Source: a virus (lineage: Duplodnaviria > Caudoviricetes). From it: DNA of 39,307 nt. Below the pieces are notes generated by a model. The model saw only the letters and a program-made list of their open reading frames with translations, was not told the DNA's origin and did not search any database. Made by a program: the position numbers and the translations under genes. The stretch covers positions 1 through 39,307 of the IMG/VR virus record IMGVR_UViG_3300020712_000011. One strand, given 5' to 3'. Below, piece by piece: positions 527-38,678 of this stretch (position 1 is the first letter of the stretch; the number at the start of each line of letters is the position of its first letter).

Positions 527-539
527 AGGGTTGGTACTG

Positions 540-1451
540 ATGCGTGCGCGAATCCTTGTAGGCGATGTTCGCACTCGCTTATCAGAAATCCCCGATCAAT
601 CTGTTCAATCTTGCGTTACTTCGCCGCCGTATTGGGGACTTCGTGATTACGGTGAAGATTCCCAAATAGGACTTGAGCAATCTCCTACCAAGTATGTTGA
701 AGAACTTGTCAAAGTGTTTCAAGAAGTTAAACGAGTTTTGCGTGATGATGGCACTCTTTGGCTCAATTTGGGAGATTCTTATAGCGGTAGCGGCAAAGGG
801 CCAAGTGGCAATTTGGGAAAGACCCATGATGAGCGCAACATGGAAGAAAAGCACTCGGCAATCGTTCCCGATGGGTTAAAACCCAAAGACCTTGTTGGCA
901 TCCCTTGGCGCGTAGCCTTTGCTCTACAAGCCGATGGTTGGTATTTGCGCCAAGACATCATTTGGGCGAAACCAAATCCAATGCCGGAATCTGTTACGGA
1001 TAGATGCACCAAATCTCACGAGTACCTGTTCCTTTTGAGCAAATCGTCCAAGTATTTTTATGATAACGAGGCGATAAAAGAACCTACCACCACAAGAGAT
1101 GATAATGAACGGGATAGAGATTCCACCAAATTAAACAATGTACCCGGACGAACTCGCATGGCTGGATTGAAAACTAATGACTACGAAATGCGCAATAAGC
1201 GTGATGTATGGACTATCAATACGAAACCTTTTAAGGGAGCGCACTTCGCCGTTATGCCAGAAGCGTTAGTTGAACCTTGTATTTTGGCTGGGAGTAAAGA
1301 AGGTGACACAATCCTTGACCCATTTAGCGGGTCGGGAACGGTTGGCTTGGTGGCACTTACCAACAATCGAGAGTATCTAGGGGTTGAGTTGAACCCGCAA
1401 TACGCCGAAATGTCCGTTGAACGCATTGGATTAGGGGCAGAACTTGGATAA
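540..1451 (+). CDS. DNA N4-cytosine/N6-adenine methyltransferase (beta class)
   Basis: VTSPPYWGLRDY catalytic motif before the LDPFSGSGT SAM-binding motif; ATG at 540 preferred. Confidence 0.92.
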   Translation: MRARILVGDVRTRLSEIPDQSVQSCVTSPPYWGLRDYGEDSQIGLEQSPTKYVEELVKVFQEVKRVLRDDGTLWLNLGDSYSGSGKGPSGNLGKTHDERNMEEKHSAIVPDGLKPKDLVGIPWRVAFALQADGWYLRQDIIWAKPNPMPESVTDRCTKSHEYLFLLSKSSKYFYDNEAIKEPTTTRDDNERDRDSTKLNNVPGRTRMAGLKTNDYEMRNKRDVWTINTKPFKGAHFAVMPEALVEPCILAGSKEGDTILDPFSGSGTVGLVALTNNREYLGVELNPQYAEMSVERIGLGAELG

Positions 1452-8079: not shown

Positions 8080-8104
8080 GTGTCAGGCAATTAAATTTGC
8101 CTCA

Positions 8105-8167
8105 CTAGACTTTATAGTCAATTTTGTCTAATCTTTACGGTTAGACTTTTTTCCGTTTTTTGTCTAA
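8105..8167. promoter_or_regulatory. Two tandem TAGAC-N15-GTCTAA inverted-repeat sites
   Basis: 8105-8131 and 8141-8167; same 15-nt spacer as the copies at 11281 and 15389. Confidence 0.7.
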
Positions 8168-8195
8168 GTCTCTTCTATCTCTTTACGGTTAGGGC

Positions 8196-8492
8196 TTACT
8201 CTTCACTCTCCCATCCATGCCGGTCCGGATCGCATAAGTGCCCGCATGAATAGCAGACATAAGCGCCGCTAAGCCATGTTCGATAACCGAATCGACCTAG
8301 TGAGTCAATAAATAACCCGGACTCGTTAACGCTTACGCGCTCGCCGTTACCGGCATATCTCGGACAGTCGAAATAAGGGAGATCTTCCGAGTCTCCCGGA
8401 TCTTCGCATAGGCAGAAGCCGAAGCGCTGGAGCTGCGTCGAGTGAGTAAGCTGCGCTAGGTCGCTCCATGAGATCGAGTCGGCGGCGATCAT
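8196..8492 (-). CDS. Cys-rich hypothetical early protein
   Basis: Coupled to the upstream gene; CxC and CxxC motifs. Confidence 0.6.
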   Translation of the reverse strand: MIAADSISWSDLAQLTHSTQLQRFGFCLCEDPGDSEDLPYFDCPRYAGNGERVSVNESGLFIDSLGRFGYRTWLSGAYVCYSCGHLCDPDRHGWESEE

Positions 8493-9052
8493 GCGTTAAC
8501 TCCGGCGGGATGATCGACTTTCCCGGAAAGTAGGAAAATATCCCCGGCTTCTGCGATATCTTCTCTTGCGTGAGCTTCGCTAGTCCACTCTTCGATCCAC
8601 TTATAACCGTACTTTTCTAAATTCCGGCAGATCTTAAGATAGGACTCGCGAAATTCTTCGATCCCGTCGCTTATCTCTTCTCCTTCCGCGTCGAATAATT
8701 CCGGGGTAACCGTGTAACCGTGCGAGTAGTGATTAGAATTCCGCTTAAATTCTGCGTAAATAGCCGAATCGGGCCAGGATAAGCCGGGGGCCGTCTCTTT
8801 ATTTACTCGACCGGAGAAGCTAACCCCGTCTCCCTGGCTATAGCTTAGGGAATAAGAGATCTTAAGATCATCCGCGCCAGGTAGATCATAAGCGCCGGTA
8901 ATCTCGCGGGCTAATTCTTCGAGCATAGACTCTTCGAGAAGATAGTCCGGGATCTCCATATGGAGAGAATATCGCCATGCTTCTAGGGCCTTTTCTTGCG
9001 CTTCGGGAGATAATTCCTCGAAGCTATAGCGGGTTATTGTGTACTCTTTCAC
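8489..9052 (-). CDS. Acidic early protein (YSFEELSPEAQEKA family), possible anti-defence/DNA mimic
   Basis: Very Glu/Asp-rich; GAAAGG RBS; function inferred from context only. Confidence 0.55.
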   Translation of the reverse strand: MKEYTITRYSFEELSPEAQEKALEAWRYSLHMEIPDYLLEESMLEELAREITGAYDLPGADDLKISYSLSYSQGDGVSFSGRVNKETAPGLSWPDSAIYAEFKRNSNHYSHGYTVTPELFDAEGEEISDGIEEFRESYLKICRNLEKYGYKWIEEWTSEAHAREDIAEAGDIFLLSGKVDHPAGVNA

Positions 9053-9093
9053 TTTATTTTCCTTTCACTCACTCATAAGCCGATCCTATGAGC

Positions 9094-9143
9094 TAGTGCG
9101 CGGCGAGAGGATCGCACTCTCGTGTAGGCCACTAGGCCCGCGC
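9094..9143 (-). ncRNA. tRNA-like intergenic element 1 (no anticodon arm)
   Basis: GCGCGG-GCCTAGTGGCCTACA-CGAGAG-TGCGATC-CTCTCG-CCGCGC-ACTA. Confidence 0.6.
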
Positions 9144-9150
9144 TGCCGGG

Positions 9151-9792
9151 TTATTTATTGCGTACCGGCATAAGTAGGCCGCGCCACTTAATAGAGTCGT
9201 GAGGGATCTCGACCGTTACCGGCTTATTTTCGCCGTGAAAGGTAAATTTATTCATCCCGGCTTTATTCGATCCCGGCACTTTCGCGAAGCTCGCTAGGAA
9301 TTCCGCGTTACATGAAAACTCCGAGAGTGCTATCTTCTCGCTATCCCATAGCTTTTCGAGAGTCTCGGGACCAGGAAAATTAGCGCCTGGGAGATAGATC
9401 GAGAAACTATCCCCGGGAGAATCAAGAGAAGCCGCGCTAATTGATACGGTAAGAATATCCCCGGCCTTAAATAGATTAACCGTTACCGACTTAAAAGTGC
9501 GCTTAGGTAGGGCCTTAAGCGCTGCGAGGATCTTCTTAATGCTCGCTAGTGGGATCGTAAGCGCTTCGAGATCTCCAGACTCAAGAGAAGTCTCTCCGAT
9601 AATAGCTCGAAATCTATCGGTAGCGGTTACTCTTAACTCTCCATCGATTACTCGAATATTTACGCCGTTAAGCGCGGTTAGATCGTCTTTCGGATGAGCT
9701 GCGACCGAAGCGCCGGCGAGTAGATCGCGAAATAGATCCGCGCTAATTGTTACTCCGGTATTTACTTTATTTTCTGCGAGTGTGCTATTCAT
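9151..9792 (-). CDS. DNA polymerase III beta-clamp-like protein (short)
   Basis: LNGV.I......L.VTATDRFR, FP, FNxxFL-like and GLLMPVR end motifs; 213 aa. Confidence 0.7.
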   Translation of the reverse strand: MNSTLAENKVNTGVTISADLFRDLLAGASVAAHPKDDLTALNGVNIRVIDGELRVTATDRFRAIIGETSLESGDLEALTIPLASIKKILAALKALPKRTFKSVTVNLFKAGDILTVSISAASLDSPGDSFSIYLPGANFPGPETLEKLWDSEKIALSEFSCNAEFLASFAKVPGSNKAGMNKFTFHGENKPVTVEIPHDSIKWRGLLMPVRNK

Positions 9793-9834
9793 CGTTTAAC
9801 CTTTCGATAATCTCCCGGGCCGATCCCTAGGAGA

Positions 9835-9881
9835 TAGTGCGCGGGGAGTGAGTTGAACACTCCCGAGCCGCCGGGCCGCGC
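9835..9881 (-). ncRNA. tRNA-like intergenic element 2 (no anticodon arm)
   Basis: GCGCGG-CCCGGCGGCTCG-GGAGTG-TTCAACT-CACTCC-CCGCGC-ACTA. Confidence 0.6.
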
Positions 9882-9888
9882 TGCTTAC

Positions 9889-10050
9889 TTAATGGGGAAA
9901 TAGAAGATCCTTGCAGAATTGCGACATATTCTCGACCGGGACTCGACATCCTTTCGGAGTTGTGTAGTAATTAAGTAAATAAATAACCCCGAGAATAAGC
10001 GCGGCGATAAGTAAGGCCCGGAGTCGCTTCCCGCGTCGAGTGAGCTTCAC
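9889..10050 (-). CDS. Small membrane protein (53 aa, not in ORF track)
   Basis: MKLTRRGKRLRALLIAALILGVIYLL... with one TM helix. Confidence 0.65.
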   Translation of the reverse strand: MKLTRRGKRLRALLIAALILGVIYLLNYYTTPKGCRVPVENMSQFCKDLLFPH

Positions 10051-10623
10051 TTAGTAACTCCGAAAATAATGGCCCGATACTTCGAAAATATCGTGCATAA
10101 GATCGCGAGCGAAAGACTCATAATCGAAGTAACGCGCTAAGAACTCCGGCGCATCGTCTAGCAGCCCCGTGCCGGAGATATATTCCTCCGCCATATCTTG
10201 ATCGCTCGAATATTCTCCAATATAACTATCGCGCATAGTCTCGAGATCGAATTCCATCCCGTTACTTAGCCAGGCGATAACTATTTCGCGCTCATCGTCT
10301 CTAATTTCTGCGAGCTGCCGCGCTGCTTCTGCTGCTTCGCTAGTGTTGCACTCTCCGGTAATAAGTCCGAGAAAATTCTCATGATCCATCACCGAGAATT
10401 CATCGCCGAAGCACTTCACGCAGCGATAAGCCGAATACTCTCCGACCGTTTCCATAGTTGCAATGCCGGCAGACTCGAGATCGTCGCACTCGACTCCATC
10501 GATCCACTTACCGAATAATCTCCCGGAGTTGTAACACGATAAACAGCCTACCCATGCGCGGGGAGTGAAGCTATCTTCATCAGTACCAATTGCAAGAATT
10601 ACGCCGGTATCTAGTGCGCTCAT
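10051..10623 (-). CDS. ardA: Antirestriction protein ArdA
   Basis: WVGCL.CYN.G.L.G.W N-terminus, YIGEY and YFDYESFARDL C-terminus; highly acidic. Confidence 0.88.
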   Translation of the reverse strand: MSALDTGVILAIGTDEDSFTPRAWVGCLSCYNSGRLFGKWIDGVECDDLESAGIATMETVGEYSAYRCVKCFGDEFSVMDHENFLGLITGECNTSEAAEAARQLAEIRDDEREIVIAWLSNGMEFDLETMRDSYIGEYSSDQDMAEEYISGTGLLDDAPEFLARYFDYESFARDLMHDIFEVSGHYFRSY

Positions 10624-10624
10624 A

Positions 10625-10774
10625 TTATGCGCCTACCTTTACGCCGCCGAATTTAATCGCCATACACTCCGGATAAGTACCGGTAAAGATTATACGGTAA
10701 GTATTTCGCGCCACTTCATCGCCGCAGACGATAATATTTCCGAATTTATTCGCTTGTGCCGTGTAGATCTTCAT
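10625..10774 (-). CDS. Small hypothetical protein (49 aa), first gene of the early operon
   Basis: MKIYTAQANKFGNIIVCG...; GAAAGG RBS. Confidence 0.6.
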   Translation of the reverse strand: MKIYTAQANKFGNIIVCGDEVARNTYRIIFTGTYPECMAIKFGGVKVGA

Positions 10775-10825
10775 AGCTTAACCTTTCGATAGTCGGCTAG
10801 GACTCTCCCTAGCTCGTTAGGCATC

Positions 10826-10855
10826 ATTCTAGGGCCATAGATTACGGATGCGCAA
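10826..10855 (-). promoter_or_regulatory. Leftward early promoter
   Basis: TTGCGC-18-TAGAAT with an AGATTACG box (10839-10846) in the spacer; leader hairpin and RBS follow. Confidence 0.65.
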
Positions 10856-11085
10856 GTATCACGGGGATAAATTCGCCGGTAATCGGCCCGGGATTAGATC
10901 AAAATAGCCCGCATTGGGTAGATATTCGCCAGAGAATGGTGTCTGTATCTGGTGTCAAGGTTTCCCCTAATCGGTGGCTTAAGCTGCTATCTGGTATCGG
11001 CGGGCAGGATTGGAGGGTTCACGCTCAATCGGGGGATAATTGGAGGGTTTGGGGGATTACTCAATTTTCCACCCAATCCCGACAT

Positions 11086-11127
11086 ATTCACCACTTAACC
11101 ACTCAAAACCCATTCACCACTTAACCA
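11086..11127 (+). repeat. 16-bp direct repeat ATTCACCACTTAACCA
   Basis: 11086-11101 and 11112-11127, in the non-coding putative genome-end region. Confidence 0.75.
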
Positions 11128-11280
11128 TTACCTATTGATGATCAATCTTTTCTGCTTACGGTTCATTCAAGTGTCAGACTTTAATTCTTCACCACTCATT
11201 CAACCACTATCACTCACCTATTCTGCTAGGTATCTTCCCAAGTGTTACCAGCATCGTATCTCTCAACCTTTACTTAACAC

Positions 11281-11307
11281 TTAGACTATTCTGCTTACTT
11301 TGTCTAA
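11281..11307. promoter_or_regulatory. TTAGAC-N15-GTCTAA site
   Basis: Exact half-sites with a 15-nt spacer. Confidence 0.65.
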
Positions 11308-12233: not shown

Positions 12234-12452
12234 TTGGAAGAACATACTCATAAGTATTTTGTTATCTGCCCTAGATGTAAGTGGGAGTCTGAGCATTATC
12301 CGTGTCCAGATGGAGTAATGATTGCTTTGGGGATTTGGACAAAGGACTTAGTAGATCATGTCAAAACAAAACATAGAATTTATTATGCCTATTCAGGTAT
12401 AAAGAAAACCAGCATCAAAAGTAAGGTACTGTGTAGTTGTGACAGGAGCTAA
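12234..12452 (+). CDS. Small Zn-finger hypothetical protein
   Basis: CxxC...H...H; overlaps the terminase start. Confidence 0.5.
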   Translation: MEEHTHKYFVICPRCKWESEHYPCPDGVMIALGIWTKDLVDHVKTKHRIYYAYSGIKKTSIKSKVLCSCDRS

Positions 12453-15369
12453 TCTACGCGTTGATGATGAGCGTTGGCGTAAATATGCCAAAGCAATCAA
12501 AGATGGACATTCCCAGCGTACTGCCGCAAAGATGGCTGGCATTAGCCACTCAACAGTTATGCGCCAGTATCGCACTCCCACATCTCGCCTTAACCGCGTT
12601 CTTGGAGAAGCAGGGTTTGAATCTGCCGGCGTTATCAACATTGAAAAGATTAAAGGCGATGCCGAAAAAGCAATCAATGACTTCGGGTATTTTCGCCAAC
12701 GCTACTTTGCTCGCTCGACTTCTCCTTGGGCTGAGGAAGCAGCGTATAAAGTTCTTGCTTTAGCCGAAAGCCCTAACAAGGAATATGTAGTTGTAAACTG
12801 CCCACCTGGTGTTGGTAAAGCCCTAGCATTAGATACTCCTATTGCTACACCTCAAGGATGGACAACGCAAGGTGCGCTTAAAATTGGAGATGAACTTTTT
12901 GACGAGAACGGTCAAATCTGTCGAGTCACAGGGAAATCTGAAATCTTTACAGATAGAGATTGCTATCAAGTAAAAACGGATGATGGCTGTAGCGTAATCG
13001 CTGATGCAGAACATGAGTGGTCTGTGCGATTAGATGGTCATGGGCAATATAACTCATTTTCAATTCCTTATTACAAAGGCAAGACTGGGCCTAAACCATC
13101 TAAGGATGGTCGCCAAATTCACACGACAAAATCTCTCGCCAAATCACGAAGTAAGCGTCCTCAATTACAGGTAGCAAAGGCACTTAACTTACCTGATGTT
13201 ATCCTTCCCTTAGACCCTTATGTTTTAGGAGCATGGCTTGGGGATGGACATGCTAACGGCGCACGCATAACAACACACCCAGATGATACGGAGATTTTAG
13301 ACCGTATTTCTTCTGCTGGATATACCGTTGAGAAGCAAGGTTATATGCTCTACTCAATTACAGGTTCCAAGAAGTATGCGAAAGATAGTTTGACAGCGCA
13401 TCTTCGCCAAGCTGGGGTCTATGGAAATAAACATATTCCTCTTGAGTATTTCAGAGCATCGCACCGCCAGCGACTCGCACTACTTCAAGGGTTAATAGAT
13501 ACAGATGGAAGCGTTAGCGAAGGCGGCTTAATCGAGTTCTGTAATACAAACCCAAATTTAGCATTTGGAGTTCAAGAACTTGTCCACTCGTTAGGCGCAA
13601 AGGCAAGCATCTCCGAGTCGCGTGCTATGTTAAATGGTAAAGATTGTGGTCCACGGTGGAGAGTTACCTTCTACCTTAAGGACGGAGCGTATCTATTAAG
13701 AAAGCGGATACGCACTCGTAATGGCGTTCGCACTCCTAGTCGTTATCTCACCGTTACTAAGGTTGATTCAGTTCCTACTCAATGTATCCAAGTAGATTCA
13801 CCCTCCCACCTTTACCTCGCAGGTAGAGGGTTAATGGTTACTCATAATTCCACATTCTTTACCCATGATCTTCCAGTATGGCTTGCCGTTCGCAATCGCG
13901 CTCGCCGTACCATGATTGGTTCTCGTACCGCAGGACAGGCAACCAAATACACAGGTCGTATTCGCCGTACCTTTGAACGCGTAACCCCAGTCAAAGCCGA
14001 CCCAGTTCTATTGGAAAAGGGTTTAGCTAAAGATGCTGAATCCACGCTCATTACAGACTTCGGTAGGTTCAAACCTTCCAACTCTGATCTTTGGCGGCTA
14101 GATGAATTTATCTTGGCTCAAGATGGTGGAGTTGCGGTAGATGATAAAGAACCAAACTTTGTTGCCTACGGAATGGATTCTGGATTTTTGGGTGGTCGCT
14201 TTGATACCGTTATCTGGGATGACCTTGTAGATAAGACAAATATCCGCACAGTTGAAGCCCGCGAGAATTTGATTAACTGGTGGGAAACTGAAGCTGAAAC
14301 TCGTCTTGACCCTGGCGGTCTTTTGATTTTACAAGGGCAGAGAATGTCGCCCGATGACCTTTACCGATACGCGCTTAATCTCGTAGATTGGTCAGAAGAA
14401 TTTGAAGAAGAACCAGAGAAGGCTCCCAAGAAGTATCACCACATTATTTACAAAGCGCACTATGATGACTTATGTGAAGCAGAAAATAACGGGGGTGTTC
14501 ATCATGGTAACTACCCTGATGGGTGTTTGCTGGATAGTTACCGTTTGCCCTGGCGTGAATTATCACGGGTAAGAAAAAGCAAACTCGATAAGTTCCTTAC
14601 CCTTTATCAGCAAGAAGATGTAGATGCCGAAGCCTCTCTTATTCAGCAAGCATGGATTGACGGGGGCATTGACAAAGACGGGGTTCAATCTCAGGGATGC
14701 TGGGATGCCACCAGAAACATCGGCAATTGGCCTAAAGGAGTTATGGGGTATTCGGTTGTAACCGCCGACCCATCTCCGACAAAATATTGGGCAGTTCAAT
14801 GGTGGGCTTATTCCCCTGATACCAAAATGCAACACCTTGTTGATTTAGCCCGAACCCCTATGGAAGCACCTGACTTCCTTGATTACAACCAAGACACCCG
14901 AACCTATACGGGACTTTTAGAAGAATGGTGGGTTCGTTCTAACGATCAAGGTCACCCTTTTACCTACCTCATAGTGGAGGCAAACGCGGCTCAACGGTTC
15001 ATGTTGCAATATGACCATTTTAAGCGGTGGTCTGCTATTCGTAATGTGAACCTAGTTCCCCATCAAACAAACCGGAACAAATCTGATGAATCGTACGGAG
15101 TTCAGACATTAGCCCCGCACTACAAAGCTGGTCGCGTTCGCTTCCCTGGCGGTGGAACTTACCTTGAGTCTAAAGCCGTTATGAAGCCAATGGTTAAGGA
15201 ACTTATTCAATGGCCTGAAGGTTCTACCGATGACACGGTTATGGCGCATTGGTTCTTGATTTGGAACGCACCCCATCTCTTTGATGGAAATAATGGACAG
15301 GTCTATCAATTCTCCAATCGCCCAGCGTGGGTACAGAGAAATGCTAATCGCTTCAAGCGAGGCGTCTAA
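12439..15369 (+). CDS. terL: Terminase large subunit with N-terminal HTH and intein
   Basis: Walker A PPGVGK|ST split by the intein; Walker B VIWDD; nuclease ADP, VEAN and DDTVMA motifs. Confidence 0.93.
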   Translation: MTGANLRVDDERWRKYAKAIKDGHSQRTAAKMAGISHSTVMRQYRTPTSRLNRVLGEAGFESAGVINIEKIKGDAEKAINDFGYFRQRYFARSTSPWAEEAAYKVLALAESPNKEYVVVNCPPGVGKALALDTPIATPQGWTTQGALKIGDELFDENGQICRVTGKSEIFTDRDCYQVKTDDGCSVIADAEHEWSVRLDGHGQYNSFSIPYYKGKTGPKPSKDGRQIHTTKSLAKSRSKRPQLQVAKALNLPDVILPLDPYVLGAWLGDGHANGARITTHPDDTEILDRISSAGYTVEKQGYMLYSITGSKKYAKDSLTAHLRQAGVYGNKHIPLEYFRASHRQRLALLQGLIDTDGSVSEGGLIEFCNTNPNLAFGVQELVHSLGAKASISESRAMLNGKDCGPRWRVTFYLKDGAYLLRKRIRTRNGVRTPSRYLTVTKVDSVPTQCIQVDSPSHLYLAGRGLMVTHNSTFFTHDLPVWLAVRNRARRTMIGSRTAGQATKYTGRIRRTFERVTPVKADPVLLEKGLAKDAESTLITDFGRFKPSNSDLWRLDEFILAQDGGVAVDDKEPNFVAYGMDSGFLGGRFDTVIWDDLVDKTNIRTVEARENLINWWETEAETRLDPGGLLILQGQRMSPDDLYRYALNLVDWSEEFEEEPEKAPKKYHHIIYKAHYDDLCEAENNGGVHHGNYPDGCLLDSYRLPWRELSRVRKSKLDKFLTLYQQEDVDAEASLIQQAWIDGGIDKDGVQSQGCWDATRNIGNWPKGVMGYSVVTADPSPTKYWAVQWWAYSPDTKMQHLVDLARTPMEAPDFLDYNQDTRTYTGLLEEWWVRSNDQGHPFTYLIVEANAAQRFMLQYDHFKRWSAIRNVNLVPHQTNRNKSDESYGVQTLAPHYKAGRVRFPGGGTYLESKAVMKPMVKELIQWPEGSTDDTVMAHWFLIWNAPHLFDGNNGQVYQFSNRPAWVQRNANRFKRGV
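12820..13848 (+). mobile_element. Class 3 intein with LAGLIDADG homing endonuclease (343 aa)
   Basis: Starts ALALDTP and ends VTHN/S; W (AEHEW), C (TQCIQV) and T (THN) triad; LGAWLGDG and LQGLIDTDG motifs. Confidence 0.92.
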
Positions 15370-18299: not shown

Positions 18300-21200
18300 T
18301 TGGCTAATCAAACGCCACCAGTACCACCAGCATCCGCGCCTCAAGTTAATACTTACACACCTGCTGGCGATGGAATCTTAAATAACCCAAGTGCCACTTC
18401 ACTTGCCGATTTTATTAACAATGCCCATGCATCTGGATTTGGAAACATAGACCCAAATATCACAACAACCATTGGGCAATCAATGGGTAACAATAACGGG
18501 GCAAAAACTGTTTTAACAACTATTAAAAACGGATTAGCCGTACCCAATAAAACTTCGCAATACCTTTATGAGCCATCTGCCATGAATCCTACGCAGACAA
18601 TTAGCAAGGTAGTTCAAGACCACATCATCAATACTGGACTTCAAACTTTTCATGCTAGTTCAATTGCTCAACTTCAACAAAAGATTTCAGATGCCACTTT
18701 TAACGGCATTAAGGGTGGTTATTCCCCTGGGCTTCCTATCAATGGAGTTTGGAACAATGATTGGAACAATGCCCTTTATCAATACCATCAAGACCAAATA
18801 AATCAACCTGGCGTTGGAACCTTCAGCGCACGAAATACATTTAATACAATTTTTGGCGAATCGTGGTTGAGCCATGCAATCCCGCTTGTTGCCAGCGTTA
18901 TTAAATCTATTCCTGGAGATGTTCTTAAAGGCTTGGGTGATGGATACAAACTTACCGCCGATGCCTATACCGCACTTGAAAACTTTGTAGGCAATAGCCA
19001 AACTGGAAATGAAGCAAGGGCAACAACCACAGATATTGCAAATCATTTAGCAAACGCTGGAAGAATTGCCGAAGGACAAAAAACCCTTACCAATGTCGAA
19101 TACGCAAATCAAAGCAACGCAGAAAGTTTGCTTAACATTGCATCTGCGGCTATGGCTCTTTCAAGCATCGGCAAATTGGGCGAAGGCGCAGTTGGGGCAG
19201 TTAAAGGTGGCATCGCGGTTGGCAAAGAAGCTGGGGCAACTAACGCTGCCAAAGCCCTTGTTACCGACATCGGCCCACAAAAGCCAGAAGGTATTGCCAA
19301 CTGGATTATGAACTCAGTATTGCCTGAAACCGCTACTGGCAATCGCCTTGCTTTTACCAAATGGCTTCACAATGTCCCAGCCACTAAAGGTTTAGTTAAT
19401 GGCTTAGATAAAGCCGCAACTGAAGGACATAAGGCTTACACGACCCTTCGTTCTGTCGCCGCAACCCCTTATCGCCTCCCAGTAGTAGGAATCGCTGGCA
19501 AGATAGCGCAAGATACTTCCGTTGCTGGAATTAAACTTGGGCTTCAAGGTCATGCCGAAAATTGGATGGGCGACCCTAACGGAACTGCCGCCTATTCACT
19601 CGACCACTTAACTCCCATTGCTGGCAATCTTGGAAACGCACTTAACATTATTCAATTGGGGGCGCATGCTCCAGCATGGAACGCTGGCGGTCCTTCGTTT
19701 GAAGTTGGTCAAAAAATAGCCAATATTCATCAACAACTTTCTGATGCGCTCAATAGCACAGGGGTTATTTCTGGTTATGAACGCGGTACTGGGGCTAATT
19801 TCCTTGATGAAGTCAATAAACTTAAAAATGCTGGCATTGAAGATGCTTACGCAGTTCGCTCCCAACAACTTTCTAGCAAATATCTTGATAATGCCGCAGC
19901 GCACTCAGCGCAATCAGTTACCAATACGGCAATTCAAAAAGGTTTAATTGATGGAATTAACGCCGACCAACGCCTTCGTTATTTACAAAATGCACAATCG
20001 GCTATTCGCAATAACCCAAGCCTTCTTCAAGAAGCGTTACAAAGTTATGCGGCAAAGCCTATGCAATGGGAAACCGACTTAGCAAAGGAAATGCAAGTTT
20101 CCCAAGAAGATGCCCGCACCGCACTTGGTCATGGACTTGAAAACCTTACCCAAGCGCAATTGCTTTTCAAACAACATGTTTTGCCTAACCTTTCTAAATT
20201 TACTACCCCAGCCAGCCTTGCTGGTGAAGATACATCATGGATGTCGGTTGATTCCCCAGCGATACCCGAAGATGCCGTATCTAAGTTAATGTCCCCAGAG
20301 GATATTGCCAAAGCAAATAAAGAATCTGCCACACCTATCGCATCTAATCAAATAAAGCGTATCCAAGCTCTTTTGCGCGATAAGGGAATTACAGATAAAG
20401 AATCACGCATTGCTTATCTCAATAAGTTTTTACAACGCACAGACATTACCTCAACTAAGAATCTTAATAGCGGTGAAGCAGATCGCCTTATTAAGAGTTT
20501 AGTTCCCAAATCACCAACCTTGCGTGATGCTCAAAATGCCTCACTTTCTGATGCCGCACTTCCATCTCATTTTGGTCTTTCAAGAATTGAATCTCTCCAT
20601 GCGCCTCAGGTACAAGCATTGGCTACAAAATACTTTGCTGAACTTGAAAAAGCAAAGCCCGGATTTAAGGCTCCCGAAACCTTAGATAACCTAGAACCTA
20701 CCAGCGGTGATAATTTTGGTGCAAATGCTCAAGCATCCGTACTTCCCAAAACATTTGACCCTAAAACCGCCACAACCGCTGAATTAAAACTTCGTGTTAA
20801 TGTTGAAAAAATTTTAGGCACAGAACTTGGTCGCAATATTAGAGATTTGCAATATGTACCAACACAAGACCTTATTAAGTTAATGGTAGAAAAATCTACT
20901 TGGCTTGCTTCAGATGCCCACCTTCCTGCCGATGGCTCCCTTGATGAAGTAAACAAAATGATTAACGACCTCGGTTACAAGATTAACTATGGAACAGATG
21001 TCGGTCATAACTGGACAGACCCAACTCTTTCTAGTGACTTACTCGGCGAAAGCCGTAATGATTTTCAAAAACTTGCGGATAAACTGGGACTTAACTTGGC
21101 TCAATCTGACCCATCTTTAGCCGCGCAAGCTGGGCGTACCGCCGCAAATAAAACCCTTCAAAACGCAATTACAAAAATTATTGCTAAGGGAAATAACAAT

Positions 21201-23618
21201 TTACCACCTTGGGCTACTGGCTCACGCCTTATGTCTTACGCCCAAGACATTATTAAGCCAACCGTTAGCGGTCCGGCAAAGTATTACATGGACTTGATGA
21301 ATAGTCCTTTGGGTAAAGCCGCATCCCTTCGCATTGGCGTAGGAAGCGTATGGAGCAAGGAAGTTAATAAGTTAATTGGAACCACAGTTAAAAATCTTGA
21401 TGGTTCCGATTGGACATTGGCTACTAAAGACCAAGCCGCCGAATACATCAAAACCACAATCGCTTCAGCCAATACCCCACAAACTTGGTTGAAGAAAGAC
21501 TGGATGACCGCCATGACCGCCAAAGGCGATGATCGCGGAATGATTCTTAATAACAAAGGCTTTGAAACACAAGCCGTTGGACTTAGCACAAAAGAAGCAA
21601 GCGACCTTTGGTATGCCATGCAAAAGGGTTTGCGTTCAACCCCGCATTACATCAATGGCATTAACCCCCTTAGCCGTTTAATGAATTCTTCATTTGGGCT
21701 TGCCAATGTTCCACTCTCCGTTAATGGTCATAGAATTCTTGACCTTACTGGCAAAATTCAACCAGCACTTATCAACGCCCGTTACTCATATTCACCACTT
21801 CAAGCGTGGCTTCGCGTTGCCAAATCAGCCGTTAAGGGTGTCAATGAGTCAATGCCGATTTCCTACAACCCAGCCGCATCTCTCAAGGAACTTGGGGCAA
21901 AGGTGGAAGCCGATGCTTATGCTTTGGCAGATAAAGTTTATGGCACAGATAAAAACGCTCAAGAAGTAGCAGATTTTACAAACAAAGAATTTGATTCCAA
22001 AGACCTTGCCAATATTTACAACCCACGCGCCACCCTTGCTCGCACAGTTCACTATGTAGCGCAGAACATGAAAGAGGAAAGACTTAATTGGGCTTCGGAA
22101 AATCCCGAACCTTCTTTCTTAAAACTTAAAATAGAAACTCCATCAGAAGGAATTAAAACAAAACAAGGTAATTCTACAAATAATTACAAAATTTCTTTTG
22201 TTCATAAAAAAGATGGTGAAGAAGTCGCTTCTTTAATGTGGAACAAAAATACAGGCGAAATACAAATGATTCATACCGACCCTAATTTTAGAGAAATGGG
22301 TTTAGCAAAAAGTATGTTGTATAGCGCAATAAAAGTGGCAAAAGAAAAAAAGATACAACCTCCTGTACATTCATCTCTTTTGACTGACATGGGAAAAAAA
22401 TGGTCGGCACAATTTCCTACTGATTCTTATACTCAATTTAACGATGCGGAACTCGCCGAACTCAAGGCTCGCGTAGATGCCATTAACAATTACGGAAATC
22501 GCACCGCAGCCGAAAAATCCGTTAATGCTTTCTTTTTCCCATTTTCATTTGAAAAGACCGTTGCCCGTGAACTTGGTGGCGCACTTTTAGATAACCCATC
22601 ACTTCGTATGATGACTGCTACTGCTATCGCTGCCTACAATTCATCTGACGGGCAAAAGACAAAGGCTTGGATGGAAGCCAATTTGCCATTGTTCAAAGAA
22701 GCTGAGAAATTAAATCCTTACTATCATGGTGTTGGCCCAGGCGGTTTCGGTGGAATTAACAAAACCCCATATTCGGTTGCCGAGCAATTTTTATACGGTG
22801 GGAAAACCAGCACAAGTCTTAACGGGGTATCTGATGCCGATAAGTTAAGTCTATTTGTTCACATGCTCATGCCAAAGCCAATTACTACCAAGGCTTCGGC
22901 TACCGCCATGCTTGCCCTTGTTCCAGCATTGAAAGATTTATCTACCAATGTCATTGGCTACAACCCTTCTTCCAACGCACCTGCCAATTGGGGTGGCGCA
23001 CTTAAAGATTCAGCCAAAACTTTATGGTGGGAAGCAGGAAGCGCAATTACCAAACTTTCACATGGTCAAATCTTTGGTCACGCCAATACCGACAATTGGC
23101 AAAACCAAGGTCATCTGCCTTACCAAGAACAACAGACAAAGGCTTGGGATTTGCGTTCCAAGATCATCACCTACGCTTCCCAAGCGTTAGATGCCAACCG
23201 TCATGGTGGGCAATTCGCATGGCCTGATACATTCCCAGCAGGTTTCGCTGGTCAAAAAGTAGATATGACAAGCCTTAATAATCTTGTTCACCATGTCTAT
23301 CCAGCCTATGACCCATCTAAAGCCTTTACTGCAGTAGCAAATAAAACAACTGCTATTTCAGAAGAACGCGTGGCAATTGCCAGCAACAAGACTCCTGGCA
23401 TCTTGCCGTATTTCAACGCCTTCGTAACTCAAAGTGATAAACTTCAAGCGTATATTCAAAAGAATTCACTTAGCCCAAATTTCGACCCAGCCCCAATTGC
23501 TCCATACATGGATGAATTGCGACAAGCCGCCGCAAAGTTGGCATCACGCGATGCTACTTTCCCAACTTTCTATGCCAAGTATTACGCTTCTAAATATGGT
23601 CCATTGAAAGGATTATGA
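18300..23618 (+). CDS. Large internal virion (ejection) protein with PG-binding-like and GNAT-like segments
   Basis: 1772 aa, Ala-rich; position between portal and scaffold. Confidence 0.6.
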   Translation: MANQTPPVPPASAPQVNTYTPAGDGILNNPSATSLADFINNAHASGFGNIDPNITTTIGQSMGNNNGAKTVLTTIKNGLAVPNKTSQYLYEPSAMNPTQTISKVVQDHIINTGLQTFHASSIAQLQQKISDATFNGIKGGYSPGLPINGVWNNDWNNALYQYHQDQINQPGVGTFSARNTFNTIFGESWLSHAIPLVASVIKSIPGDVLKGLGDGYKLTADAYTALENFVGNSQTGNEARATTTDIANHLANAGRIAEGQKTLTNVEYANQSNAESLLNIASAAMALSSIGKLGEGAVGAVKGGIAVGKEAGATNAAKALVTDIGPQKPEGIANWIMNSVLPETATGNRLAFTKWLHNVPATKGLVNGLDKAATEGHKAYTTLRSVAATPYRLPVVGIAGKIAQDTSVAGIKLGLQGHAENWMGDPNGTAAYSLDHLTPIAGNLGNALNIIQLGAHAPAWNAGGPSFEVGQKIANIHQQLSDALNSTGVISGYERGTGANFLDEVNKLKNAGIEDAYAVRSQQLSSKYLDNAAAHSAQSVTNTAIQKGLIDGINADQRLRYLQNAQSAIRNNPSLLQEALQSYAAKPMQWETDLAKEMQVSQEDARTALGHGLENLTQAQLLFKQHVLPNLSKFTTPASLAGEDTSWMSVDSPAIPEDAVSKLMSPEDIAKANKESATPIASNQIKRIQALLRDKGITDKESRIAYLNKFLQRTDITSTKNLNSGEADRLIKSLVPKSPTLRDAQNASLSDAALPSHFGLSRIESLHAPQVQALATKYFAELEKAKPGFKAPETLDNLEPTSGDNFGANAQASVLPKTFDPKTATTAELKLRVNVEKILGTELGRNIRDLQYVPTQDLIKLMVEKSTWLASDAHLPADGSLDEVNKMINDLGYKINYGTDVGHNWTDPTLSSDLLGESRNDFQKLADKLGLNLAQSDPSLAAQAGRTAANKTLQNAITKIIAKGNNNLPPWATGSRLMSYAQDIIKPTVSGPAKYYMDLMNSPLGKAASLRIGVGSVWSKEVNKLIGTTVKNLDGSDWTLATKDQAAEYIKTTIASANTPQTWLKKDWMTAMTAKGDDRGMILNNKGFETQAVGLSTKEASDLWYAMQKGLRSTPHYINGINPLSRLMNSSFGLANVPLSVNGHRILDLTGKIQPALINARYSYSPLQAWLRVAKSAVKGVNESMPISYNPAASLKELGAKVEADAYALADKVYGTDKNAQEVADFTNKEFDSKDLANIYNPRATLARTVHYVAQNMKEERLNWASENPEPSFLKLKIETPSEGIKTKQGNSTNNYKISFVHKKDGEEVASLMWNKNTGEIQMIHTDPNFREMGLAKSMLYSAIKVAKEKKIQPPVHSSLLTDMGKKWSAQFPTDSYTQFNDAELAELKARVDAINNYGNRTAAEKSVNAFFFPFSFEKTVARELGGALLDNPSLRMMTATAIAAYNSSDGQKTKAWMEANLPLFKEAEKLNPYYHGVGPGGFGGINKTPYSVAEQFLYGGKTSTSLNGVSDADKLSLFVHMLMPKPITTKASATAMLALVPALKDLSTNVIGYNPSSNAPANWGGALKDSAKTLWWEAGSAITKLSHGQIFGHANTDNWQNQGHLPYQEQQTKAWDLRSKIITYASQALDANRHGGQFAWPDTFPAGFAGQKVDMTSLNNLVHHVYPAYDPSKAFTAVANKTTAISEERVAIASNKTPGILPYFNAFVTQSDKLQAYIQKNSLSPNFDPAPIAPYMDELRQAAAKLASRDATFPTFYAKYYASKYGPLKGL

Positions 23619-36712: not shown

Positions 36713-37099
36713 ATGACAGTCGGACTCTCGCCAACACTTTTGGCAAACAAATGGCTTAACATGCTCAACGGAACGGCTTTTGCCTCTGCTCCTACCGCTT
36801 GTTACATTGAATTGCATATTGGCGACCCTGGCGTAAACGGAACGACAAACCCTTCAGTAGTAACAACTCGCCAAGCAGTTACTTGGTCAGCCGCTTCTGG
36901 TGGCGCACTTACGCTCTCCAACTCTCCATCATTTACCATGACTGGAACTGAAACCATCTCCCATGTTGCCGTTTGGGATGCTTCGACTTCAGGTAACTTT
37001 TTGTTTTCATCTGCACTTACCGCCTCCAAGTCGGTTGTTGCTACGGATGTTTTGACATTTACCACTTTCGGAGTTTCCTTTACACCTATCGCCGCGTAA
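36713..37099 (+). CDS. Small virion structural/tail protein
   Basis: YIELH.GDPG..G, H.AVWDA.T.GN.L motif common in tail-region proteins. Confidence 0.7.
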   Translation: MTVGLSPTLLANKWLNMLNGTAFASAPTACYIELHIGDPGVNGTTNPSVVTTRQAVTWSAASGGALTLSNSPSFTMTGTETISHVAVWDASTSGNFLFSSALTASKSVVATDVLTFTTFGVSFTPIAA

Positions 37100-37111
37100 G
37101 GGGCTTAACTC

Positions 37112-37285
37112 ATGGCATCCCCAATTTATGATTGCTCAGTTCGTACTTCCGTTGTCGCTTCTGGCGGTGCGTTAGTTCAACTCGTACCACCAGCCGCCGC
37201 ACCTGCTGCAACTCCACTCCCATTCTGTATCTTCAACACAGGTATAGGTCAGATTGCGGATGTAACGCTCTCCTGGACTGAGTAA
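37112..37285 (+). CDS. Small hypothetical protein (57 aa)
   Basis: AAGGGG RBS; MASPIYDCSVRT...DVTLSWTE. Confidence 0.45.
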   Translation: MASPIYDCSVRTSVVASGGALVQLVPPAAAPAATPLPFCIFNTGIGQIADVTLSWTE

Positions 37286-37288
37286 TTC

Positions 37289-37471
37289 ATGGCGGTGACC
37301 CAAGGGGGAGCCTTTGGTAATAAAACTCTTACCAATATACCTGCACAAACTCCCCCTCAAGTCGTTTCAACCACCCGCATATATCTACCAGATGCCAACG
37401 GCATCAACCTTAATAACGCTGATACGCAAAGCCCTATTGCCTTTTCTACAACTTCCAATACTCAGCAATGA
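37289..37471 (+). CDS. Small hypothetical protein
   Basis: ATGA overlap with the next gene. Confidence 0.45.
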   Translation: MAVTQGGAFGNKTLTNIPAQTPPQVVSTTRIYLPDANGINLNNADTQSPIAFSTTSNTQQ

Positions 37472-38388
37472 GCACTTCCAACCTAGCCCATCAACTTGTA
37501 GTCATTGATTACCATTCAAGTTTTTATGGTTCTGGCACAAGGGCTTTCTACAATGGCGGTGTTTTGGTTTATGCCAAAATCGCAAGCGTTACTTCACAAA
37601 CTACTTTTGGTACAACATCTACCGCAGTTCGCAAACCTCAAGCCCAAGATTCAACGGCAATTACCTTTGGAACAACTTCAACTGCCAAGAAAATTCAAAG
37701 CCCATCAACTAGCCCTAGCACTACTTTTACCACAACCGTTACTGCAAAACTCACCAAATCAGTTCAAGTAAGTTTTGCTATTACCGAATCAACAACTGCA
37801 ACTGCCAAGAAAACTCAAACCGTTGCAACCACTTTTCCAATTACAGTTACTGGAAATGTAACCGTCAGGAGAAATCTCAGCACCGGAACTTCCCTGCCGA
37901 TCACGGTAAATAGAACTCCAACTACAGCTTCCCTCTATCACCCACAAGTCACCTTTACGATTACCGCTGGTACAACTTCAGCTGCCAACAAATTCAAAAT
38001 GGCTCAAACCACTTTGGGCGTAACTGCCACCACTACGCAAACCGCTAAAAAGGTAATGGGAATTGCTACCAATTTGGCAATTACCGCTAACCGCACCTCT
38101 CAAGCAGGGCGCGTTATCAATGCCCTTGCCAACCTTGCTATTTCTACCGCGTTGCTCACAACAGTCAAAAAGTCGAACCCGATTACCGACCATAAGATTG
38201 TTGCCTACTCTGAGGTTTCCCCAACCCTTTGGGTGGATACAACAGGTGATATTTTCTGGTCTGCCCAGATGGGCGATCAACTCAATTACGCCGCAGTTAT
38301 TCAAGATAAGAGGCGAACTGCTATCCTTGGCACAAGGCTTTGGTCGGCTTTAATCTCCAATAGGCTCTGGAACGGACAAACCCAATGA
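37468..38388 (+). CDS. Thr-rich fibre-like protein with ~20-aa repeats
   Basis: Recurrent (L/F)xIT...T.TAKK units every 20 aa. Confidence 0.65.
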   Translation: MSTSNLAHQLVVIDYHSSFYGSGTRAFYNGGVLVYAKIASVTSQTTFGTTSTAVRKPQAQDSTAITFGTTSTAKKIQSPSTSPSTTFTTTVTAKLTKSVQVSFAITESTTATAKKTQTVATTFPITVTGNVTVRRNLSTGTSLPITVNRTPTTASLYHPQVTFTITAGTTSAANKFKMAQTTLGVTATTTQTAKKVMGIATNLAITANRTSQAGRVINALANLAISTALLTTVKKSNPITDHKIVAYSEVSPTLWVDTTGDIFWSAQMGDQLNYAAVIQDKRRTAILGTRLWSALISNRLWNGQTQ

Positions 38389-38678
38389 CAAATGTGTACC
38401 CACTAGGTAGCGTTGAATTTCAACCTATTCTCGTTACCCGCGATAATGTGGTCATTACTTCTGGCGTTTCCTTTGCCGTTATATCGCTTAATACTGCCCC
38501 TAAGAGTAGCGATTGGTTCTCAGCCACAGTCTTACCTACCGCAGCCTATCCAAGCGGTGCTACGGGCTTCCTGACAGGTTCTTATGGGGCTGGAACTTGG
38601 GCAGTATGGGCGCAGGTTTCCGATTCCCCAGAAACTCCAATTATCAATTGCGGGACTTTTCAAGTATCCTCACTTTAG
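38385..38678 (+). CDS. Small Ig-like virion protein
   Basis: G.W.VWAQV.D.PETP motif. Confidence 0.55.
   Translation: MTNVYPLGSVEFQPILVTRDNVVITSGVSFAVISLNTAPKSSDWFSATVLPTAAYPSGATGFLTGSYGAGTWAVWAQVSDSPETPIINCGTFQVSSL

What the first reader, a model, noticed from the sequence alone, without database searches (positions are those of the whole stretch)
8190..10935. Compositionally rewritten anti-restriction 'leading region': CA/TG depleted, 4-bp palindromes enriched
Seen: in this block CAA/TTG almost vanish and CCA/TGG often survive only where Trp or Met codons force them. GATC, CCGG, TCGA, CGCG and AGCT are dense (about 15 GATC by eye in 8196-9150), while the virion genes carry very few. Both edges look sharp. 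The block encodes ArdA, a known Type I RM DNA mimic, and is transcribed inward from the probable genome end. Known: the first-entering DNA of T7 and T5 carries anti-restriction genes and is depleted of restriction sites. Inference: this is first-injected DNA selected to lose asymmetric CA/TG-containing targets (Type I/IIG/III, BREX or Ssp-like CCA). The palindrome excess is either a by-product of that or a decoy/host-methylated 'self' signal. Enrichment, rather than depletion, of palindromes is the unusual part.
Basis: partly seen in the sequence, partly recalled or inferred. Interest (0 to 1): 0.85.

Follow-up and report, generated by a model that had tools for sequence, protein, structure and literature searches.

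The report
Phage entry DNA dodges Type-I restriction
In an uncultured lake phage and its relatives, a swappable 3-kb block of early genes has lost about 28% of the adenine-thymine pairs spaced 7-9 bases apart, the spacing that Type I restriction sites share whatever their letters, which likely marks the first-injected DNA as purged against a whole enzyme class; this copy of the block has also lost CA/TG and filled with short palindromes, while sister copies have been stripped of them.

Summary
It is symmetric between strands and matches no donor examined. In 8130-11103, an A followed by a T 7, 8 or 9 bases later occurs 370 times against 516 (z about -8). T...A is normal, and so is the rest of the genome (1.00 +/- 0.04). 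That spacing matches the two methylated adenines of Type I sites in a published motif table. All 18 classified modules at this slot next to terL show it (0.63-0.88). The slot comes in two exchangeable types on 94-99% identical backbones. P (7, like this window, ArdA in 4) is CA/TG-poor and palindrome-rich. N (11, no ArdA) is stripped of CCGG, GGCC, AGCT, ACGT and GCNGC. Best reading: first-entering DNA under pooled Type I restriction pressure, with Type II pressure deciding the type. The genome ends and the host are not shown, and a 1.3-1.5-fold palindrome excess remains unexplained.

The parts
8130..11103 (.). Segment depleted of A...T pairs 7-9(10) bases apart (Type I site geometry); also CA/TG-poor and rich in CCGG, GATC, TCGA (P-type module)
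   Evidence: 370 vs 516, z -8.2 to -8.8 under 2- to 5-mer-preserving shuffles; 309 other windows of the same length range from 0.89 up, mean 1.00
8098..11013 (.). Exchangeable slot: replaced by a different N-type module in sister record G001, whose flanks are 94-95% identical
10625..10774 (-). 49-aa first gene of the leftward operon (g49); in 6 of 7 P modules and 0 of 11 N; function unknown
   Evidence: model pLDDT 82, only weak MbtH-like fold matches with E >= 0.3
10051..10623 (-). ArdA-family anti-restriction protein, acidic (40 D/E vs 12 K/R); in 4 of 7 P modules and 0 of 11 N
   Evidence: PF07275 E 4.6e-22; phrog_2059; PDB 2w82 E 3.5e-10
9889..10050 (-). 53-aa protein with a hydrophobic stretch (g53); homologues in both module types
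9151..9792 (-). Truncated beta-sliding-clamp-like protein, 213 aa, with no Gln
   Evidence: PF02767 E 7.8e-8; TIGR00663 below cut-off
8489..9052 (-). Acidic 187-aa protein (phrog_5162; 38 D/E vs 17 K/R), uncharacterised; candidate second anti-defence protein (inference)
8196..8492 (-). 98-aa Cys-rich acidic protein (g98), last gene of the operon; homologues in both module types
8126..8146 (+). Terminator-like hairpin where the rightward replication genes meet the leftward block (left edge)
   Evidence: consensus match only
12439..15369 (+). Terminase large subunit, with a LAGLIDADG-bearing insertion of about 1030 bases that is absent in the sister record; fixes the block's position next to the packaging genes
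531..1451 (+). Phage N4/N6 DNA methyltransferase (SPPY motif), present here and absent from N-type sister G001; target unknown

Best explanation
The block has lost A...T pairs spaced 7-9(10) bases apart, the spacing of the two target adenines in Type I restriction sites, most likely because it is the first DNA to enter the cell and is exposed to many host Type I specificities before ArdA or other early proteins are made. Shown: the deficit, its orientation, its restriction to this slot, and its recurrence in relatives. Inferred: (1) packaging starts near terL and runs rightward, so this block is packed last and enters first, transcribed inward; (2) each host strain carries a different HsdS, so repeated loss of individual sites sums to loss of the only feature they share, the A-N6-9-T scaffold; (3) modules that cycle through hosts without 4-cutter Type II systems (P type) go further and drop the most-targeted adenine contexts, CA and AC, plus words like GAAC, CTGA and ACAG that may be Type III/IIG targets. 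TG to CG and CA to TA or CG then rebuild CCGG, TCGA and GATC, which the rest of the genome avoids; (4) modules that meet Type II 4-cutters (N type) cannot take that route and purge the palindromes instead. Modules move between backbones by recombination.
For: Signature: 370 vs 516 in the block, with T...A 499 vs 518. By distance 6-12: 1.11, 0.79, 0.62, 0.74, 0.83, 0.91, 1.12. With the protein kept, 321 vs 397 (z -7.5); with codon order shuffled, 444, so the amino-acid order is shifted too; the core shows 3215 vs 3257. Only the A-then-T pair among 16 base pairs is low. Published gapped motifs (PMC4752239 Table S4, first 30 of 234 rows, 28 distinct, my hand count) have A-to-T distances 7, 8, 9, 10, 11 in 7, 9, 8, 3, 1 cases. 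18 of 18 classified slots give 0.63-0.88 and the 15 with enough flanking core give 0.94-1.02; pooled after removing a duplicate, P 2502/3388 and N 3240/4558. 10 of 10 more distant phage ArdA loci have 0.53-0.76 in the ArdA kilobase, several fading downstream; some of these records are near-identical. 8 of 8 GenBank phage records (7 isolates, one uncultured) are lower in their early or ArdA part than elsewhere, weakly (for example ProddE 0.84 vs 0.93, T7 0.91 vs 0.96). Adenines in CA and AC are the most purged partners in both types (N 0.58 and 0.55; P 0.62 and 0.62) and TA the least in P, matching the P-type shift. Selection rather than hypermutation: synonymous changes that create CA/TG 36/305 vs neutral 56/303 (p 0.024), opposite in the core. 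Sister pairs G000/G001 and G002/G003 carry opposite module types on 94-99% identical backbones, and G000 and G002 share the P module at 93% on 67-75% backbones. The same genes carry Type II words in P and almost none in N. Candidate hosts hold HsdS in 16 of 151 and C5 methyltransferases in 40 of 151 genomes, with Type I, II and IV genes in variable islands. PMC12455610 shows experimentally that only early-injected Type I sites matter in Murciavirus.
Against: Genome ends were not mapped: only contigs were available, the depth step near 11,000 is explained by alleles merging, and no TerL relative with known ends was found. The host is not identified; the family searched is a guess from WhiB, ArdA relatives (19 of 20 cellular hits are Actinomycetota), genome size and rhodopsin. 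Among close relatives, synonymous changes that create A...T pairs were not measurably rarer (18/116, 20/134, 9/71). N modules show the same A...T deficit without ArdA and without much CA loss, so Type I pressure alone does not explain the P type. At trinucleotide level the match between N pair-depletion and P word loss is weak (rho 0.39-0.40, p 0.12-0.14; -0.05 for one framing). CCGG and GATC are chosen beyond 2- and 3-mer expectation (105 vs 68 with TCGA; context odds ratios 11.7-16 in the window, 2.4-3.4 pooled). 4 more distant slots left out of the classes give 0.88-1.01, and only 5 of 15 distant terL relatives have a kilobase at or below 0.76. Type IIB and other Type I-like bipartite systems share the geometry.
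Confidence: 0.72

Rival explanations
1. Type I purge as above, but the P-type palindromes (CCGG, GATC, TCGA, AATT) are positively kept as methylation marks, written by the previous host or by the phage's own methyltransferase, that let entering DNA pass as self or act as decoys.
For: Residual excess after 2- and 3-mer control (105 vs 68; 94 vs 70 in the codon-aware model). NCC|GG 19:4 vs 11:27, GAT|C 16:2 vs 3:6, G|ATC 12:2 vs 8:18. CCGG is high in all 7 P modules (154/59 pooled). The window has a methyltransferase insert that its N sister lacks. Candidate host islands hold DruM-, DrmMII- and DruE-like genes.
Against: GATC and TCGA are high in only about 3 of 7 P modules. Sites are neither clustered nor clearly regular (CV 0.77-0.92 vs 0.96 +/- 0.15). 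Adenines in GATC/TCGA are still short of partner T (0.198 vs 0.251 expected; other A 0.178), so they are not much released. P sister G002 has neither methyltransferase family. GCGC and CGCG are high in both types, as expected for words with no adenine.
Confidence: 0.2
2. The P-specific loss (CA/TG, GAAC, CTGA, ACAG, CAAA) comes from a second, separate class of asymmetric system (Type III, IIG, MANTIS-like, BREX or phosphorothioate), not from a deeper Type I purge. This is compatible with the main reading of the A...T deficit.
For: GAAC 23/133, CTGA 14/133, ACAG 26/133 in P against 214/164, 67/164, 91/164 in N, on both strands. 13 of 25 distinct Type III 5-mers from Table S4 (rows 1-60 of 84, hand look-up) are below 0.6 of core against a 0.30 baseline (p 0.017). 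9 of 151 candidate hosts have Mod-sized N6/N4 frames (my reading).
Against: 9 of the same 25 Type III words are enriched above 1.2. Many IIG motifs seen contain words enriched in P. No DndD over the cut-off and no full-length PglZ in 151 genomes. No strand bias, the route described for Type III and MANTIS evasion.
Confidence: 0.4
3. The block is a recent import that carries a donor's general composition.
For: The module is exchanged horizontally and its edges coincide with the swap boundaries.
Against: No examined source has this composition throughout: 9 phage records, 18 cellular ArdA loci (CA 0.89-1.26), 10 candidate host stretches (CA 1.11-1.24, TA about 0.6). A general composition cannot give an orientation-specific deficit at 7-9 bases that unrelated gene sets share. 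Homologous genes differ by module type.
Confidence: 0.04
4. Local mutation bias (for example CpA deamination) or selection on mRNA structure or RNase targets.
For: TA rises as CA falls; block mRNA folds slightly better than synonymous permutations (-24.9 vs -23.4 kcal per 100 nt).
Against: GC is higher, not lower, and CA is also lost to CG (CCA to CCG, TCA to TCG). Loss of CA/TG is only 1.3 times the neutral rate while gain is reduced. Depletion is strand-symmetric, and folding equals that of trinucleotide shuffles. Neither process predicts A-N6-8-T.
Confidence: 0.04

Closest known systems
Murciavirus (Autographiviridae) early-injected region and Type I system Mme2I (PMC12455610; abstract, one results section and discussion read)
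   Same: Type I sites matter only in first-injected DNA; the early region is variable and holds anti-defence genes.
   Different: There it is one known motif in one host, shown by escape mutants. Here it is a sequence-independent deficit of the A-to-T spacing shared by the class, strong enough to shift amino-acid order, plus two exchangeable compositional types.
T5/BF23 first-step-transfer region (PMC10644984; passages read) and T7 early region with Ocr
   Same: Sites in first-entering DNA decide restriction; anti-restriction genes come first.
   Different: Two-step injection and terminal repeats are not shown here. T7 has only a faint A...T deficit (0.91 vs 0.96). Palindrome enrichment in the entry region was not in the passages read.
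Genome-wide restriction-site avoidance in phages (Rusinov et al. 2018, PMC6286503; abstract read)
   Same: The backbone and the N modules avoid Type II palindromes.
   Different: That survey reports no avoidance for Type I and IIG sites. Here Type I-type avoidance is strong but confined to 3 kb and visible only through the spacing.
Leading region of conjugative plasmids (PMC13478746; abstract and one results section read)
   Same: First-entering DNA, GC-richer, with anti-restriction genes such as ArdA.
   Different: That study tested short palindromes and 5-6-bp targets and found no systematic depletion; bipartite spacing was not examined in the section read.
ArdA family (Tn916 Orf18, PDB 2w82); ArdA-like gene in Nanopelagicales phage E7 (PMC10202952; passages read)
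   Same: Pfam and PDB sequence match, strongly acidic, phage-borne.
   Different: Cys-rich N-terminal part; inhibition of Type I enzymes not tested; E7 was not compared with this phage.

Membership tests
First-injected (leading) anti-restriction region | Lies at the genome end that enters first | not testable with these tools
   Only contigs could be laid. Indirect: position left of terL, inward transcription, the same layout in Dinger and Daredevil records, signal strongest upstream and fading downstream in some distant loci.
First-injected (leading) anti-restriction region | Encodes an anti-restriction protein | tested here: met
   ArdA PF07275, PDB 2w82. Met for 4 of 7 P modules, not for N modules.
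First-injected (leading) anti-restriction region | Locally depleted of restriction targets relative to the rest of the genome | tested here: met
   Type I geometry 0.72 vs 1.00. In N modules also CCGG 8/62, GGCC 6/62, ACGT 1/82, GCCGC 0/29. Not met for Type II palindromes in this window.
Type I RM target avoidance | Deficit of A then T at the inter-adenine distance of Type I sites, in that orientation only | tested here: met
   Distances 7-10 low, 6 and 12 normal, T...A normal; published distances 7-11 (by eye).
Type I RM target avoidance | Depletion of the actual host motifs | not testable with these tools
   Host and its HsdS specificities unknown; candidate family has HsdS in 16 of 151.
Type I RM target avoidance | Ongoing purifying selection on A...T-creating changes | tested here: inconclusive
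   18/116, 20/134, 9/71, no significant trend; a small per-pair effect is expected.
ArdA family | Profile match over the family cut-off | tested here: met
   79.7 bits vs cut-off 27, profile positions 1-153 of 155.
ArdA family | Acidic DNA-mimic surface; inhibits Type I enzymes | tested here: inconclusive
   40 D/E vs 12 K/R; no structure or activity tested.
BREX / Dnd / Ssp target avoidance | System present in plausible hosts | tested here: not met
   DndD over cut-off 0 of 151; PglZ matches all partial in frames of about 370 aa; PAPS-reductase hits mostly 300-345-aa frames that I read as CysD, 2 weak others. Host family is a guess, genomes may be incomplete, Ssp genes were not searched directly.
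Type III / IIG target avoidance (P type) | Known motifs preferentially depleted | tested here: inconclusive
   13 of 25 below 0.6 (baseline 0.30) but 9 of 25 above 1.2.

The most novel reading that the evidence does not exclude
These phages keep a balanced pair of exchangeable entry cassettes that encode, in DNA composition, two answers to host restriction. Both erase the class-wide Type I spacing. One also erases Type II palindromes; the other packs CCGG, GATC and TCGA on purpose, as methylation self-tags or decoys read by an undescribed host mechanism. A-N6-8-T depletion would then be a general, annotation-free marker of first-injected DNA and of Type I pressure in any phage or plasmid.
Probability: 0.25. 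Interest if true: 0.93.

Novelty: new variant of a known kind. Interest (0 to 1): 0.8.

Why it matters
Type I site avoidance is reported as absent from phage genomes (PMC6286503 abstract), and leading-region effects have been shown one motif at a time. A deficit in the adenine spacing common to the whole class reads out pooled Type I pressure without knowing any host motif. It can be scanned in any genome and would locate the entry end of uncultured phages. The two module types on near-identical backbones make the trade-off between escaping Type I and Type II systems testable, and they point to small early genes (g49, the 187-aa acidic protein, the acidic N-module proteins) as candidate new anti-restriction proteins. 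I did not find the spacing signature in print: library searches returned no such report, but the library lacks most subscription papers.

Tried and rejected
Terminus mapping: two read-laying runs gave contigs only, with no end pile-ups; no long direct repeat in the window; TerL search of isolates gave 3 weak hits with no known ends; TerL found nothing in genome contigs. In G016 the signal is strongest in the last 800 bases and resets at the record start, but its 127-base end repeat is probably an assembly overlap, so I give it little weight. mRNA structure and strand-specific RNase targets were rejected. Donor composition was rejected. CA/TG loss is not general to ArdA regions: absent in Dinger, Pasto, Jormungand and Daredevil. 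A link between module type and phage methyltransferase is suggestive only: C5 enzyme in 6 of 8 N records and 1 of 5 P records, several incomplete. Fold searches for g49 and the 187-aa protein named no function, nor did the Atlas; a ProddE 'putative antitoxin' shares only a short SYSQGD stretch. No tRNAs for host linking. No clear sigma-70 promoter for the block (4 sites found vs 6.9 by chance). A duplicate: L019 proved to be the same module as L127, so pooled P numbers count it twice; key numbers were recomputed without it and hold. A Fisher test used a wrong ArdA count (5/8); the right one is 4 of 7 vs 0 of 11, p 0.011. P and N were assigned by me after seeing the data; 4 of 22 distinct slots were left unclassified (more distant, no terL in the locus). 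One correlation failed (a zero count). Hiraoka 2019 (PMC6329791, passages) lists no methylated motifs for its 7 draft Actinobacteria genomes, which are incomplete; it gave no host motifs to test.
Full report
Setting. The window is a whole 39.3-kb virus record found in freshwater metagenomes (24 of 24 listed runs). It encodes WhiB, SSB, RusA-like and exonuclease genes, a terminase, a capsid and tail genes, so it is most likely an actinobacterial phage. The block holds six leftward genes: g49, ArdA, g53, a truncated beta-clamp-like gene, an acidic 187-aa gene and g98. They lie between the rightward replication genes and terL.

1. The observation. The bias is not due to amino acids or codon preference: CA/TG is 152 against 234.5 when the block's own synonymous codons are permuted, and 43 against 125.5 at codon junctions. 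It is present in non-coding DNA, it affects both strands, and Gln is rare (1.1% vs 4.5%). Only CCGG, TCGA, GATC and GCGC clearly exceed the codon control; AGCT, GGCC and 6-bp palindromes do not. Public contigs bridge both edges of the stated block.

2. The slot is polymorphic. Loci were gathered by terL and by the conserved 61-aa gene left of the block, not by block content; ArdA and g49 searches added more. 63 loci with the slot collapsed to 21 distinct ones. I added two that lacked the anchor, and one proved a duplicate, leaving 22. Seven resemble the window (P: CA 0.51-0.73, TA 1.2-1.4 where tabulated). Eleven are opposite (N: CA 0.85-1.04, CCGG 8/62, GGCC 6/62, AGCT 12/82, ACGT 1/82, GCCGC 0/29, GCAGC 0/33). 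Four distant ones were left unclassified. G000 (P) and G001 (N) are 94-99% identical over most of the backbone, as are G002 (P) and G003 (N), while G000 and G002 share the P module at 93% on backbones of 67-75%. Three gene families occur in both types and carry Type II words in P (5-11 per gene) but 0-2 in N. ArdA is in 4 of 7 P and 0 of 11 N; g49 in 6 of 7 and 0 of 11. Modules share ancestry, so these are not fully independent.

3. The hidden signal. A lag-8 autocorrelation led to a direct test. An A followed by T at 7, 8 or 9 bases is depleted in the slot, and T followed by A is not. In the window the count is 370 against 513-517 in shuffles that keep 2- to 5-mers (z -8.2 to -8.8). No other window of that length in the genome falls below 0.89 (309 windows). 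With the proteins fixed, 321 stands against 397 (z -7.5); shuffling codon order gives 444, so residue order has shifted too; core genes show no such gap. All 18 classified slots show it (0.63-0.88), and their cores do not (0.94-1.02, 15 measured). In Table S4 of Blow et al. (PMC4752239; I saw rows 1-30 and 121-150 of 234 gapped motifs), the methylated A and the T opposite the second methylated A lie 7, 8, 9, 10 and 11 apart in 7, 9, 8, 3 and 1 of the first 28 distinct motifs. This is a hand count and may be off by one in a few rows. The window's deficits at those distances are 0.21, 0.38, 0.26, 0.17 and 0.09, with none at 6 or 12. The dip also sits on ArdA in 10 of 10 more distant phage loci, faintly on the early parts of 8 of 8 GenBank phage records, and upstream of terL in 5 of 15 distant relatives; it is weak or absent around three g49-only loci.

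4. How it likely works. By the last-in-first-out rule (established knowledge, not tested here), DNA just left of the packaging start enters first. Dinger and Daredevil carry ArdA in leftward genes near their right ends. Murciavirus escape mutants show that only early-injected Type I sites restrict, and T5-like phages behave alike. If host strains differ in HsdS, each host removes different sites, and the sum is loss of the shared A-N6-9-T scaffold. A family of small rhodopsin-bearing actinobacterial genomes (unnamed by the tool; acI-like by my inference) carries HsdS in 16 of 151 and C5 methyltransferases in 40 of 151. Among ten single-contig members, seven have a C5 enzyme, two have a Type I system instead and one has neither. 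This gives the two regimes that the two module types would need, but the link to this phage is not shown.

5. Why P is CA-poor and palindrome-rich. The adenines most short of a partner T are those in CA and AC, in both types, and these are the dinucleotides that P loses outright. Replacing TG by CG and CA by TA or CG creates CCGG and TCGA. In the window's genes GATC+CCGG+TCGA number 94, against 28 with backbone codon usage, 50 with own-codon permutation, 58 with a dinucleotide model and 70 with codon, 2- and 3-mer terms. Most of the excess is therefore release and by-product, but 1.3-1.5-fold remains. In distant loci L095, L099 and L101 both word sets are depleted together, so palindrome gain is not forced. 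Synonymous differences among close relatives favour selection over hypermutation for CA/TG and are uninformative for A...T pairs. GAAC, CTGA and ACAG are far lower in P than in N, which may mean a second system; Type III motifs fit partly, BREX and Dnd were not found in the candidate hosts.

6. Comparison and novelty. Loss of restriction sites from first-entering DNA is known. What I did not find in six library searches is class-wide avoidance of the Type I spacing, or exchangeable palindrome-rich and palindrome-free entry modules. Rusinov et al. report no Type I avoidance genome-wide (abstract), and a 2026 preprint repeats that asymmetric sites are not uniformly avoided (passages). Earlier notes from this scan describe restriction-type words packed into likely entry regions of other phages. 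They are unchecked and were used only as a lead for the self-tag rival.

Verdict. Real, stronger than first described, and a new variant of a known kind. Confidence 0.72 in the overall mechanism; higher that the spacing deficit reflects Type I-like systems, lower for the account of the P type. Interest 0.8.

Noticed in passing
window 12816-13844 (inside terL): LAGLIDADG-bearing insertion of about 1030 bases, probably an intein; absent in sister G001 and skipped in contigs of two runs.
   Followed up: partly
window 18300-23618: 1772-aa virion-region protein with weak RecT-like and GNAT hits; 22079-22455 differs in sister G001. Possibly an injected multi-domain anti-defence protein.
   Followed up: no
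window 9040-9160 and 9790-9895; also 9788-9830 vs 10770-10812: Repeated intergenic elements in the block that fold into hairpins on the mRNA strand; one 10-base word recurs twice here and in close P relatives. Possible processing or promoter elements.
   Followed up: partly
G003:29021-30188, G004, G007, G008, G010, G011, G013: C5 DNA methyltransferase split into two adjacent ORFs in the four records read, present or absent between sister genomes; in 6 of 8 N records and 1 of 5 P records.
   Followed up: partly
L111, L015, L016, L007 slot genes: N modules encode several strongly acidic unknown proteins (for example L111:2129-2890, 49 D/E vs 22 K/R; L015:6987-7568) with no Pfam match: candidate new DNA mimics standing in for ArdA.
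   Followed up: partly
window 11040-11300: C/A-rich non-coding strand with a short tandem repeat (11073-11124) right of the block, polymorphic among runs; a candidate place for the genome end or origin.
   Followed up: partly
G016 36800-38542; L023 and L030 upstream of terL: Very strong A...T(7-9) dips (0.22-0.57) in more distant phages, without the CA/TG loss in G016.
   Followed up: partly
window 10624-10777: One run holds a contig that skips g49 entirely, so g49 is itself a mobile piece.
   Followed up: no
whole backbone of the window: 6-bp palindromes are about five-fold below chance (3.2 per kb in coding DNA) and ACGT is almost absent genome-wide.
   Followed up: partly
L222-L231 (candidate host islands): A conserved chromosomal position in small actinobacterial genomes holds changing defence genes: C5 methyltransferases, SNF2/DruE-like helicases, Type II and Type IV nucleases.
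   Followed up: partly
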